Source of the DNA: a virus
Lineage: Duplodnaviria > Heunggongvirae > Uroviricota > Caudoviricetes
IMG/VR virus record: IMGVR_UViG_2529293142_000011
Length of the DNA stretch: 23,222 nt
Reading direction: 5' to 3' (one strand)
How positions within the stretch are numbered: position 1 is the first letter of the stretch; the number at the start of each line of letters is the position of its first letter. Shown here piece by piece: positions 6,001 through 9,000 of this stretch. Position numbers: made by a program.

Positions 6001-9000
6001 TATGTCAGTACCTAATCGATAGCGAATCCAGTCATTCGCAAGGGAGTTCCATTCAATACCAGTGTGAGTGTATGCACTAAAAGCTCTGTCTCCAGTTACA
6101 GCTGTGTTGTGTCTTTTATTACTGCCTGATGGAGAGTAAATATCTTGCGCAATATGGAGAGATAATTGGCTCGAGTCTGAGATATCGTGGCTATATCCCA
6201 GAAATAAGCCTTGTGAGTAATCATCTCTGTTTTCATGTTTATTGCCATAAATATCATTAAGTATTGGTTGAAACTTCCCTGCATCATCATTTGCTAATGA
6301 TAATGCAAGGCTGTTCGCGATAGCTGAACACGTGGTAAATGACAGAGCAATAAAGACGCCAGCGATGACACTTTTTTTCATATGTTATTGTCTTCCTTTT
6401 TTTGAATGGTGCGCGTATTTTACATACATGAGTTTGTAATACAAGGTGCGTAATCAATATGATGTTTTATAATTGCGTGAGACAATTGATTTATTCGTTT
6501 TTTATTGCGGTTTTTATTATCTTTTAATGTAACGGTGTTTTTATTAAGTGTGTTTGCGTGGTGTTTTATGTTTTTTATAATTTTTGTTTTATTAAATTTA
6601 AATGCATTAGTAATGGCTATTCTATATAGCAATATAAGAACTGTTACAAAAAAAGGGGGGGCAATTACAGGTAGTTATGGATGATGAGTGAAACAGATAT
6701 TGGAGAACCGGGGAATGAATGATGTCTGAGTCTTATATATCAGAACTCCTTCGCTGTCGCTGGGGGCTCCTGTGCTTATGTCGTTTCCCCGATTCGGTTT
6801 TGAACGATTACCGAATGTTGAAGAATTATGCCAAAATATAGAAAGGATTTACTGCATGAATACCCAATATTTACAGTATGTTCGTGAGCAACTTATGGCA
6901 GCTACTGCTGACTTGAACGGAGCAACGAAAGGCCAGCTCGAAGCCTGGCAGGAGCATGCACAATTTGATACTGGTACATACAAACGAAAGAAGCCGCGCA
7001 TTCTGGATGTGGTAACTGGCAAGATGATTACGCTGGATAATACGCCGACTTCCGGTAAGCAGTCGTACGCAAAAGGTTCATCCATTGCTTTGGTCAGCCC
7101 GGTTGAATTCTCAACCTCTTCATGGCGCCGCGCGGTTTTGTCTCTCGATGAACATCAGAAAGCATGGTTGCTTTGGTGTTACAGCGAAAGCGTTCGATGG
7201 GGGCATCAGGTCACCATAACGCAATGGGCATGGAGCGAGTTTAAAGATTTGTTAAGTAACAGAAAAATTGCAGGTAAGACACTGGATCGCCTGAAGACGT
7301 TAATCTGGCTGGCTGCACAGGATGTGAAGAGCGAACTTGCAGGGCGTGAGGCCTATGAATACCAGACACTGGCATCATTGGTGGGAGTGACAACAAAAAA
7401 CTGGTCCGAGACATTTACTGAACGCTGGGTTGCAATGAAGCACATTTTTCTACAGCTTGATAGTGATGCTTTATTGTTTGTGACGAGAACACGTTCAAAA
7501 CAAAAGGCAGCATTTTTACAGCAAAATATTGCAAAACTGGATTAAAAGCCATATACTTCATGCAAATTTGGTATGTTGTAAAAAATGTATAAACCCGCTG
7601 CCGAGTGGGTTTTTTTATGCCCTGAGTTGTACTTGTACGGTAAACATGCTGGCTGCTATGTAATAGAGTTTTTTTAGCCTGTAACCTCTTGACGGCATTG
7701 AATTGCTTTTGTTATGAGTTGTAAGCCAATGTTATCATCTTGTATTGGGGTGGTTATGAAGGATGGTGCGCTGCTCAGGAGTTCTTCACTTTTTATTGCC
7801 TACATGGGATGCCTTGGATGGGGGAGTGCTTATTTCTATGGATGGGGTACTTCTTTTTACTACGGCTTCCCATGGTGGATTGTAGGTGCAGGTGTTGATG
7901 ATGTTGCCAGAAGTTTATTTTTTGCAGTTATCGTCATTGCTATATTTCTTATCGGTTGGGGTATTGGTGTTGTATTCTTTTTCGCAGTGAAAAGAAAACA
8001 TTCTATGCAAGAGCTAAATGTATTTCGCCTTTATTTTGCTGTGGAATTATTGTTTGTGCCGGCAATTATTGAGTTTTCTATATTGAGACAGAAGATTCAG
8101 GTACCTCTTTTGCTACTGTCAGCAGCGATTGCGCTGGCGGTTACAATTTCGATAAGATCTTATGGGCGATTTTTATCGGTATCATGCTTCTATGATAAGC
8201 CATTTATAAAAAAACATTTTTTTGAGATTGTGATGATTGCTTTTGTGGCATATTTTTGGCTTTTTTCATTTCTGACAGGATATTACAAACCACAGTTTAA
8301 GAAAGAATATGAAATGATTAATTATAATGATGGTTGGTATTATGTTCTTGCTCGTTATGATAATTGTCTGGTTTTGTCTACTTCTTTCAATGCAGGTAGT
8401 AAAAGGTTTGTCATTTATCAATCAGCACAAGATAAGAATCTTCAGGTTGATATTGTAAGGACCAGAATTTAATTGGCTGCATAAATAATATTTTAAGTTG
8501 CAAGTTGGCTATTCGTAGGAATAGAACCTTAGGCATGCTGAATGCGTTTTCTGAACATTGTTTTATAAACTGTGTCTGCTTGCTGTTGTGATCCTGCTTT
8601 TAGTGATGGTGATGATGGATTTCACCAGCAGGATAATGTTGGTACTGACTGATGGCGCTCTGGTCTGCGGCATTGTGGTATTGCTGTGGCCGATGATGAA
8701 AGAACAGAATGAATAATTCTTGACTTTTTGTTTACTGTTTATTAAAAAATCAACCGCATGGTGAATCCTCCTTGGAGGGGCTAAATGATCGAGTTTTAAG
8801 GGCACGTAGCGAGTTCTGTTTGATCATTGCAGAACTTAGCGGGAGGCGCCATGCGTACATCACTAGTGTTATTCCTTTTATCATTTTCCTTGTGAGTTCT
8901 GGCTGCGCATTGCGCAGCCTTTTTTTTATGACCTGCCACTGGCAGATGGTCATCCTGTGATTTGATTCCGCTTCCGGCTTTTTAACTCTGTTCCTCTACA

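What the first reader, a model, noticed from the sequence alone, without database searches (positions are those of the whole stretch)
6856..7617. Second, non-lambda Q-type candidate with a promoter inside its 3' end and a terminator ~50 nt downstream
A 230-aa ORF is followed by a good sigma70 promoter (TTGCAA-17-TATACT) overlapping its last codons and an intrinsic terminator about 50 nt after the predicted start site. That is the architecture of a Q gene with its pR'/tR' module. If the protein is not a Q-family antiterminator, it is an unknown regulator placed at the head of the late operon.
Basis: inference. Interest (0 to 1): 0.5.

Follow-up and report, generated by a model that had tools for sequence, protein, structure and literature searches.

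The report
Phage 82-type Q antiterminator module
This is an ordinary, already catalogued late-gene switch of a lambda-like prophage: a phage-82-type Q antiterminator gene with its own late promoter, pause signal and terminator, essentially identical to that of phage 434 and of prophages in hundreds of E. coli genomes.

Summary
Window 6856-7545 (+) encodes a 229-aa protein. It matches Pfam PF06323, the Q82 family, over its full length (E 9e-92). It matches neither of the other two Q families. It is 88% identical to the experimentally studied Q of phage 82. It differs by one residue (L208F) from Q of phage 434 and of an E. coli O157:H7 prophage.

The promoter TTGCAA-17-TATACT (7529-7557) has its -35 hexamer in the last codons of Q. 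An extended -10-like element, TGgTATGTT, follows at +6 to +14, as in 82 pR'. This places the sigma70-dependent pause at +25 (T7588). An intrinsic terminator follows (hairpin 7591-7612, T7 tract to 7616), giving a leader RNA of about 53-55 nt.

The -35/-10/pause-element geometry is identical in all 10 loci compared, from four genera. Nine of the ten carry a terminator within about 80 nt.

The other "Q" in the window is a 29-codon stub of a lambda-type Q (5208-5297), so this gene is the only intact Q.

Local peculiarities are minor: a leader about 19 nt shorter than in relatives, and GTA instead of GCC at +15 to +17. Interest is low.

The parts
6719..6841 (+). ylcG-like small ORF (40 aa) directly upstream of Q. 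It travels with Q82-type genes.
   Evidence: Annotated as YlcG-like in phage 434 and as YlcG family in RefSeq. Matches phrog_2705 at E 2e-12.
6842..6847 (+). Ribosome-binding site AAAGGA, 8 nt before the Q start codon
   Evidence: Read directly from the sequence. The 434 record annotates an RBS at the equivalent place.
6856..7545 (+). Q gene, phage 82 type (229 aa plus stop)
   Evidence: PF06323 at E 9.2e-92, full length. phrog_304 'anti-termination protein Q-like' at E 2e-108. 88% identical to phage 82 Q with no gaps. One nucleotide (7477) and one residue (L208F) differ from phage 434 and O157:H7 TR01.
7529..7534 (+). pR' -35 hexamer TTGCAA, inside the last codons of Q
   Evidence: Invariant in all 10 loci. 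Identical in the 3' end of phage 82 Q.
7535..7551 (+). Promoter spacer, the expected location of the Q-binding element (inferred, not mapped here)
   Evidence: [quoted passage not shown] The window matches an 82-like locus at 41 of 49 positions over -35 to +14.
7552..7557 (+). pR' -10 hexamer TATACT
   Evidence: TATATT or CATATT sits at the same position in the 9 other loci.
7564..7564 (+). Inferred transcription start (+1, A)
   Evidence: Inference. This numbering places the GCC of the 82-like loci at +15 to +17 and a T at +25, as published for 82 pR' (PMC5001585).
7569..7577 (+). Sigma70-dependent pause element: extended -10-like TGgTATGTT at +6 to +14
   Evidence: TGnTAT is invariant at this position in all 10 loci. 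82 pR' is described as having a -10-like element with an extended -10 (PMC5001585).
7588..7589 (+). Predicted promoter-proximal pause site, +25/+26 (T, A)
   Evidence: Inference from the 82 pR' pause at +25/+26 with U at +25. TGTA at +23 to +26 is shared with 5 of the 6 E. coli relatives; PhiR47_2 and Ec98191 have CGTA there instead of TGTA at +23.
7591..7616 (+). tR' intrinsic terminator: 9-bp hairpin 7591-7612 whose 3' arm runs into a T7 tract (7610-7616)
   Evidence: -12.5 kcal/mol, z -3.7. Annotated as a terminator in the phage 434 record. The same terminator sequence lies at +46 to +67 in E. coli 135.
5208..5297 (+). 29-codon stub of a lambda-type Q gene, the displaced earlier Q
   Evidence: [23 protein letters not shown].... 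The 434 record annotates it as an N-terminal fragment of lambda Q P03047. RefSeq annotates it as a pseudogene 'antitermination protein, missing C-terminus'. The intact lambda-type Q of phage 2B8 shares the MMSDS segment.
8901..8927 (+). Second intrinsic terminator on the late transcript, at the end of the moron block
   Evidence: 8 pairs, 7 of them G-C, T8 tail. Annotated as a terminator in the 434 record.
11229..11265 (+). Third intrinsic terminator, just upstream of the holin gene
   Evidence: 11 pairs, 7 of them G-C.
11311..12448 (+). Lysis cassette (holin S, lysozyme R, Rz), the first essential late genes served by Q
   Evidence: PF04971, PF00959 and PF03245. Terminase and portal genes follow.

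Best explanation
The segment is the late-gene switch of a lambdoid (434-like) prophage, of the phage 82 type.

Q (6856-7545) is transcribed from the early rightward operon through the nin region. Host sigma70 RNA polymerase starts constitutively at pR' (-35 at 7529, -10 at 7552, +1 at about 7564).

Sigma70 is still bound when it recognises the extended -10-like element TGgTATGTT at +6 to +14. It holds the complex while a few more nucleotides are added, so the polymerase pauses at about +25. Without Q, the polymerase then terminates at tR' (hairpin +28 to +49, U tract) and releases a leader RNA of about 53-55 nt.

When Q has accumulated, it binds its DNA site in the promoter region and loads onto the paused complex, probably helped by NusA. 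It stays with the polymerase and makes it resistant to tR' and to the further terminators at 8901 and 11229. The lysis and morphogenesis genes are then expressed.

Shown here: family membership, conserved geometry of the cis elements, the terminator fold and the gene context. Inferred from the phage 82 literature: the start site, the pause at +25, Q loading, the NusA dependence and the readthrough.
For: Protein:
- Full-length PF06323 match at E 9e-92, and no match to the other Q families.
- PF06323 is the Q82 family (PMC9388147).
- 88% identity over 229 aa, without gaps, to phage 82 Q.
- phrog_304 Q-like at E 2e-108.

Identity with known phages and prophages:
- The DNA is 99.8% identical to viable phage 434, where the gene is annotated 'Q82-like' with a terminator at the same place (PMC9119081).
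- It is at least 99% identical in 618 complete E. coli genomes, annotated 'bacteriophage antitermination protein Q'.

Cis elements:
- The -35/17/-10/11/TGnTAT geometry is invariant in 10 loci from Escherichia, Salmonella, Klebsiella and Enterobacter whose Q proteins are only 60-88% identical.
- The composite pattern is unique in the window, with none expected by chance.
- It agrees with the published description of 82 pR': an extended -10-like element, a pause at +25/26 and U at +25.

Module boundary: homology among relatives stops at about +15. Phage 2B8, which has a lambda-type Q, shares the sequence only from the terminator onwards. The Q-specific module is therefore Q, promoter and pause element.

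Terminator: z -3.7. A terminator lies within +28 to +76 in 9 of 10 loci.

Context: nin genes upstream; holin, lysozyme, Rz, terminase and portal downstream.
Against: No experiment was or could be run, so the start site, the pause and the readthrough are all inferred.

The window has GTA at +15 to +17, where 82 pR' has GCC. That GCC was shown to lengthen the pause two- to five-fold, so the pause here may be shorter.

The leader is about 19 nt shorter than in relatives, so the terminator hairpin begins only 2-3 nt after the pause site.

The window's Q carries a private L208F change relative to 434, O157 and 82.

Conservation of the -35 hexamer is confounded because it lies in conserved codons.
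Confidence: 0.95

Rival explanations
1. The module is a decayed remnant. The Q gene is intact by sequence, but the switch no longer works in this prophage. Possible causes are the L208F change, the loss of the GCC pause-stabilising bases, or the 19-nt shorter leader that puts tR' right after the pause site.
For: L208F is private to the window. GTA replaces GCC at +15 to +17. There is a 19-nt gap relative to E. coli 135 and phage 606R7. The O157:H7 prophage carrying the same module has a deleted early region, with a bet pseudogene joined to ninE.
Against: The same promoter, pause element and terminator sequence is present in phage 434; the only difference is one extra T in the T tract. Phage 434 was propagated lytically and sequenced from virions. 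The GTA and short-leader variant is therefore functional. L208F is a conservative change in a position that already varies (L/V neighbours). The window itself carries complete replication, nin, lysis and head genes.
Confidence: 0.04
2. The main product in the lysogen is the short pR' leader RNA (about 54 nt, with a terminator hairpin and U tail). It acts as a trans-acting small RNA, as StxS does in Shiga-toxin phages. On this reading the promoter-terminator pair has a function of its own in addition to the Q switch.
For: pR' promoters are constitutive, and lysogens of lambda, 21, phi80, 82 and P22 make short terminated RNAs. The StxS leader of Stx phages is an Hfq-dependent sRNA (PMC7547250). 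The window's leader ends in a Rho-independent terminator with a U tract.
Against: No Rfam family matches the leader at E up to 1. The leader downstream of +15 is not conserved among Q82-type loci. No target or Hfq data exist. This reading adds to the antitermination explanation and does not replace it.
Confidence: 0.1
3. The promoter-like hexamers are a chance match within and next to the coding sequence. The real late promoter lies elsewhere, for example the TTGTTA-18-TATCAT site at 7709-7738.
For: Hexamer pairs of this quality are no more frequent than in shuffled sequence. The -35 lies in conserved codons.
Against: The -10, the 11-nt distance to TGnTAT and the TGnTAT element itself all lie outside the coding region. 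They are nevertheless position-invariant across four genera. The composite pattern is unique in the window. The 7709 site lies downstream of the terminator and belongs to sequence shared with a lambda-type-Q phage.
Confidence: 0.02

Closest known systems
Phage 82 Q and its late promoter 82 pR' (Q82 family, Pfam PF06323)
   Same: The protein is 88% identical over the same 229 residues. The last 27 nt of the gene, including the -35 TTGCAA, are identical. The spacing of the -35, the -10 and the extended -10-like pause element is the same, with T at +25. An intrinsic terminator follows shortly downstream. E. coli 98191, whose Q is 99% identical to 82 Q, serves as a proxy for 82 pR' and matches the window at 41 of 49 positions from -35 to +14.
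   Different: The -10 is TATACT, not TATATT. The pause element is TGGTATGTT, not TGATATTTT. Positions +15 to +17 are GTA, not the GCC shown to support the 82 pause. The leader lacks about 19 nt, so the terminator hairpin starts at +28 rather than about +50. The terminator itself is unrelated to that of the 82-like loci.
Phage 434 Q82-like gene (OL657226, CPT_434_67) and the same module in E. coli O157:H7 prophages at the ybhC/lambda att site
   Same: The DNA is 99.8-99.9% identical across Q, promoter and terminator. The context is the same: ninG, phosphatase, lambda-Q stub, lpxR on the opposite strand, ylcG, Q, membrane-protein moron, DUF3927.
   Different: There is one residue difference (F208 here, L208 there). 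Phage 434 has one more T in the terminator T tract. The 434 record annotates the terminator but not pR' or the pause element.
Lambda Q (PF03589) with pR', qut and tR' (6S RNA)
   Same: The logic is the same: a constitutive late promoter at the 3' end of Q, a sigma70-dependent promoter-proximal pause at a -10-like element, a DNA-bound Q loading onto the paused complex, NusA stimulation, and terminator readthrough.
   Different: There is no sequence similarity. In lambda the pause is at +16/17 and the leader is 194 nt. A lambda-type Q survives in this window only as a 29-codon stub.
Phage 21 Q (PF06530)
   Same: It is a functional analogue at the same genome position.
   Different: There is no sequence similarity. 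Q21 acts without NusA and has a solved nozzle structure. No member of the Q82 family has a solved structure in the PDB copy searched.
StxS, the pR' leader sRNA of Shiga-toxin phages
   Same: It is a short RNA made constitutively from pR' and ended by tR' in lysogens.
   Different: The Q family and the leader sequence are different. No evidence here shows that the 54-nt RNA has a function of its own.

Membership tests
Q82-family antiterminator (Pfam PF06323; prototype phage 82 Q) | Full-length sequence homology to phage 82 Q / the PF06323 profile | tested here: met
   E 9.2e-92, 307 bits against a cut-off of 25, residues 4-219 on profile positions 1-216 of 220. 202 of 229 residues identical to phage 82 Q, with no gaps. 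phrog_304 at E 2e-108.
Q82-family antiterminator (Pfam PF06323; prototype phage 82 Q) | Gene lies at the end of the nin/early-right region, immediately upstream of the late operon | tested here: met
   O, P, NinB, Dam, NinE, NinF, NinG and NinI phosphatase lie upstream. Holin, lysozyme, Rz, Nu1, terminase and portal lie downstream on the same strand.
Q82-family antiterminator (Pfam PF06323; prototype phage 82 Q) | Sigma70 late promoter pR' at the 3' end of the gene | tested here: met
   This is sequence-level evidence only. TTGCAA-17-TATACT has the same position and spacing in 10 of 10 loci. The composite pattern is unique in the window. Promoter activity was not measured.
Q82-family antiterminator (Pfam PF06323; prototype phage 82 Q) | Sigma70-dependent pause element: an extended -10-like sequence in the initial transcribed region that places the pause at about +25 | tested here: met
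   TGgTATGTT lies at +6 to +14, with T at +25. TGnTAT is invariant in all 10 loci. This agrees with the description of 82 pR' in PMC5001585. The pause itself was not measured. The GCC at +15 to +17 of the prototype is GTA here.
Q82-family antiterminator (Pfam PF06323; prototype phage 82 Q) | Q-binding element (QBE/qut) in the promoter region | tested here: inconclusive
   The QBE of 82 lies within -31 to +30 (PMC4914094), but its sequence was not in the held texts. The window matches an 82-like locus at 41 of 49 positions from -35 to +14.
Q82-family antiterminator (Pfam PF06323; prototype phage 82 Q) | Intrinsic terminator (tR') a short distance downstream of pR' | tested here: met
   Hairpin at +28 to +49 plus a T7 tract, -12.5 kcal/mol, z -3.7. 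Terminators lie at +46 to +76 in 8 relatives.
Q82-family antiterminator (Pfam PF06323; prototype phage 82 Q) | Q-dependent, NusA-stimulated readthrough of terminators | not testable with these tools
   This needs in vitro transcription or genetics. It is known for phage 82 Q. Indirect support comes from viable phage 434, which carries the same module.
Q-lambda family (Pfam PF03589) | Sequence match to the lambda Q profile (zinc-binding C-terminal domain) | tested here: not met
   The 229-aa protein has no PF03589 hit at E up to 0.01. The positive control, Q of phage 2B8, hits PF03589 at E 6e-56. Only a 29-codon lambda-Q stub remains, at 5208-5297.
Q21 family (Pfam PF06530) | Sequence match to the Q21 profile or to solved Q21 structures | tested here: not met
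   No PF06530 hit. No significant PDB sequence hit; the best E-value was 0.11, to an unrelated transporter.

The most novel reading that the evidence does not exclude
The 434/O157 variant of the Q82 module has lost about 19 nt of leader, including the 3' arm of a hairpin (+11 to +39) that other Q82-type leaders keep with different helix sequences. As a result its terminator hairpin begins 2-3 nt after the sigma-dependent pause site. This could make it a natural minimal Q82 substrate, in which Q must protect the transcript within about 25 nt of loading. The constitutively made 54-nt leader could also have been recruited as a prophage small RNA, as StxS was.
Probability: 0.1. Interest if true: 0.35.

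Novelty: already known. Interest (0 to 1): 0.08.

Why it matters
It matters little as a discovery. The gene, its family and its terminator are already annotated in phage 434 and in RefSeq E. coli genomes, and the mechanism was worked out on phage 82.

It is useful for annotating this window in three ways:
- It identifies the single functional late-gene activator.
- It places pR', the pause element and tR' to the nucleotide; the public records do not mark pR' or the pause element.
- It shows that the lambda-type Q is only a stub, left when an lpxR-ylcG-Q82-pR' block replaced the original Q.

The Q82 family is the one Q family without a solved structure. Natural promoter variants such as this one could therefore serve as templates for that work.

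Tried and rejected
- PDB sequence search with the protein found no relative. The best E-value was 0.11, to an unrelated transporter. No Q82-family structure can therefore be cited.
- NCBIfam returned no model hit.
- Rfam at E up to 1 over 6400-9100 found nothing on the leader or terminator. The only hit of note was a sub-threshold STnc100 match at 8726-8930.
- I tried to retrieve the literal 82 pR' and QBE sequences. No supplementary text was held for PMC4914094, and full-text searches for the sequence strings found only unrelated papers. As a proxy I used an E. coli locus whose Q is 99% identical to 82 Q.
- RNAalifold on the relatives' leaders gave no usable consensus, because MAFFT could not keep the arms in register. 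I used single-sequence folds instead, and these give only suggestive support for a leader hairpin.
- The 434 record marks a CII site/paQ (TTGCN6TTGC) on the minus strand at 7521-7534. I treat it as unproven: there are 3 matches in the window against 1.84 expected, there is no convincing -10 at the right distance, and the motif lies in conserved codons.
- My first composite-pattern search used a wrong spacer length and found nothing. The corrected search is.
- I did not run the large protein-database searches or a structure prediction. Membership is already decided at 88% identity to the prototype.
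Full report
**What is in the sequence**

The ORF starts at ATG 6856 and ends at TAA 7543-7545, which gives 229 aa. An AAAGGA ribosome-binding site lies 8 nt upstream. A mechanical ORF call extends the frame to a GTG at 6772, but the ATG is the start that is homologous to phage 82 Q.

The promoter-like pair is TTGCAA (7529-7534), 17 nt, TATACT (7552-7557). The -35 hexamer sits in the last codons of the gene, and the -10 lies just past the stop codon.

A 9-bp hairpin (7591-7612) runs into a T7 tract that ends at 7616. It folds at -12.5 kcal/mol, z = -3.7, and none of 200 shuffles folds as well.

Taken singly, hexamer pairs and hairpins of this quality are no commoner here than in shuffled sequence. 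The case for function rests on the protein and on comparison with relatives.

**The protein**

Pfam gives one hit: PF06323 Phage_antiter_Q, E 9.2e-92, covering the whole profile. PMC9388147 lists the three Q families as Q21 = PF06530, Q-lambda = PF03589 and Q82 = PF06323.

- PHROGs agrees: phrog_304, Q-like, E 2e-108.
- The protein is 88% identical, without gaps, to the 229-aa Q of phage 82 (X92588).
- It has no sequence relative in the PDB. I found no paper reporting a Q82 structure. That family is still the structurally unsolved one.

**Where the sequence is already known**

The 1-kb region is 99.8% identical to phage 434 (OL657226). There the gene is annotated 'Q82-like transcriptional activator/anti-terminator' and the hairpin is annotated as a terminator. 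[quoted passage not shown]

The region is at least 99% identical in 618 of 5,426 complete E. coli genomes, many of them O157:H7. PGAP names the product 'bacteriophage antitermination protein Q'. In O157:H7 strain TR01 it lies in a prophage integrated next to ybhC, with the same neighbours as here.

The window's gene differs from both by one nucleotide (7477), giving L208F. The promoter-to-terminator stretch is identical to O157 and differs from 434 only by one T in the T tract.

**The cis elements**

I compared the 3' end of Q and the downstream DNA in nine other loci, from Escherichia, Salmonella, Klebsiella and Enterobacter. Their Q proteins are 60-88% identical to this one.

All ten loci share this layout:
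- TTGCAA;
- a 17-nt spacer;
- TATAYT (CATATT in one locus);
- 11 nt;
- TGnTAT.

A pattern built from this geometry occurs once in the 23-kb window, here, with none expected by chance.

PMC5001585 describes 82 pR' as having a -10-like pause element with an extended -10, GCC at +15 to +17, an A/T-rich stretch, and a pause at +25/+26 with U at +25. E. coli 98191 has a Q that is 99% identical to 82 Q, so I used it as a proxy for 82 pR'. It fits that description exactly when +1 is the first A after the -10.

The same numbering applied to the window gives:
- +1 at A7564;
- the pause element TGgTATGTT at +6 to +14 (7569-7577);
- T7588 at +25;
- the terminator hairpin at +28 to +49.

The terminated leader would be about 53-55 nt.

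**Module boundaries**

BLAST matches of Q82-type relatives to the window stop at 7574-7578, just after the pause element. Phage 2B8 has a lambda-type Q (PF03589, E 6e-56) and a lambda-like pR'. It matches the window only from 7592 onwards, meaning the terminator region and the downstream moron.

The specificity unit is therefore Q plus promoter plus pause element. The terminator and what follows are interchangeable. This is as expected for a factor that is loaded at the promoter and then ignores terminators in general.

**Terminators in relatives, and the short leader here**

Eight of the nine relatives have an intrinsic terminator whose hairpin starts at +46 to +53. The Salmonella locus has only a weak candidate, which the scan did not pick up.

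E. coli 135 carries nearly the same terminator sequence as the window, but at +46 to +67. An alignment shows that the window lacks about 19 nt between the pause site and the hairpin.

The window also has GTA where the prototype has GCC at +15 to +17. Mutations in that GCC shortened the 82 pause two- to five-fold.

These are real differences from the prototype. But phage 434, which has this exact arrangement, is a viable phage propagated lytically, so the variant works.

**Context**

Upstream lie O, P, NinB, Dam, NinE, NinF, NinG and a NinI-type phosphatase. Next come:
- a 29-codon stub of a lambda-type Q, at 5208-5297;
- an lpxR lipid A deacylase gene on the opposite strand, at 5419-6381;
- a ylcG-like ORF, at 6719-6841;
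- then Q.

A block of lpxR-ylcG-Q82-pR' appears to have replaced the original lambda-type Q and promoter.

Downstream of tR' come:
- a moron block: a membrane protein, a DUF3927 protein and a small ORF, ending in a strong terminator at 8901-8927;
- a NanS-like sialate esterase gene;
- a third terminator at 11229-11265;
- holin, lysozyme and Rz;
- terminase and portal.

Q-modified polymerase therefore has to pass three terminators before it reaches the lysis genes.

**Mechanism**

The best explanation is the textbook one for phage 82:
1. Transcription starts constitutively at pR'.
2. Sigma70 recognises the -10-like element and the complex pauses at +25.
3. Without Q, the polymerase terminates at tR'.
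4. With Q, the protein binds its site in the promoter region, engages the paused complex through the beta flap with help from NusA, and travels with the polymerase as a termination-resistant complex.

Only the sequence-level parts were tested here; the rest is inferred from 88% identity to the protein on which the experiments were done.

**Rivals**

- A dead module is unlikely, because phage 434 is viable.
- A chance promoter is unlikely, because the geometry outside the coding region is conserved.
- A function of the short leader as a small RNA is possible in addition. StxS and the short pR' RNAs of other lambdoid phages are precedents. There is no evidence for it here, and Rfam finds nothing.

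**Verdict**

Novelty: already known. Interest: low.

Noticed in passing
L003:1335-1363, L004:1334-1362, L008:1317-1346, L009:1309-1332, L011:1321-1345 (transcript +11 to +39); absent at window 7574-7590: Most Q82-type leaders fold a hairpin at about +11 to +39. Its 5' arm overlaps the end of the pause element and the GCC. The helix sequence differs between lineages: UUUUGCC/GGCAAAA in E. coli, AUGCUGCC/GGCGGCAU in Klebsiella RothC, and GUCGCC/GG.CGAC in KO-TP1 and ENT1. This looks like compensatory change. The z-scores are modest (-0.8 to -3.7). The window, 434 and O157 type has lost the 3' arm in a 19-nt gap and keeps only a weak A/U-G/U hairpin at +8 to +27.
   Followed up: partly
window 5208-5297 (+): A 29-codon stub of a lambda-type Q gene lies directly after the NinI phosphatase gene. 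It begins [20 protein letters not shown] and then diverges. It marks the left joint of the replacement that brought in lpxR-ylcG-Q82.
   Followed up: yes
window 5419-6381 (-): An lpxR gene (outer-membrane lipid A 3'-O-deacylase, PF09982, E 4.5e-40) is carried as a moron on the strand opposite to the early-right transcript, between the Q stub and ylcG. Transcription that reaches Q must run antisense through it.
   Followed up: partly
window 7521-7534 (-): TTGCAATATTTTGC matches the CII-site consensus TTGCN6TTGC and overlaps the palindromic -35 hexamer of pR'. The 434 record labels it paQ/CII site. It is also present in phage 82 and the E. coli relatives, but not in the Klebsiella or Salmonella ones. 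The window has 3 matches against 1.84 expected by chance, and the motif lies in conserved codons. The genuine pRE-type site TTGCGTTTGTTTGC is at 360-373 (-).
   Followed up: partly
window 7618-8960 (+): A moron block sits between tR' and the next terminator. It holds a 238-252-aa membrane protein (phrog_1521, no Pfam hit), a DUF3927 protein at 8558-8716, and a 62-aa ORF. A promoter-like site with an extended -10 (TTGTTA-18-TGnTATCAT, 7709-7738) would start transcription after the ATGs at 7714 and 7729. This favours ATG 7756 as the real start of the membrane protein, rather than the starts used in public annotations.
   Followed up: partly
window 8726-8930 (+): A full-length but sub-threshold match to the Rfam sRNA family STnc100 (41.4 bits, gathering score 47, E 6e-7). 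It ends at the strong terminator 8901-8919 and overlaps the 62-aa ORF.
   Followed up: no
window 7477: The window has T where phage 434 and O157:H7 TR01 have C. This gives F208 instead of L208 in Q. Phage 82 Q also has L at this position.
   Followed up: yes
L010:1383-1560 (phage 2B8) versus window 7592-7760: Phage 2B8 has a lambda-type Q and promoter joined to the same downstream DNA as the window. In 2B8, however, the counterpart of the terminator hairpin is degraded: ACCTGCCGCCGAGTAGTTTTT against AAACCCGCTGCCGAGTGGGTTTTTTT.
   Followed up: no
window 7591, 8901 and 11229 (+): Three strong intrinsic terminators lie on the late strand between pR' and the holin gene. Lysis therefore depends on processive antitermination over about 3.7 kb that includes a NanS-like esterase gene at 9014-10864.
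   Followed up: partly
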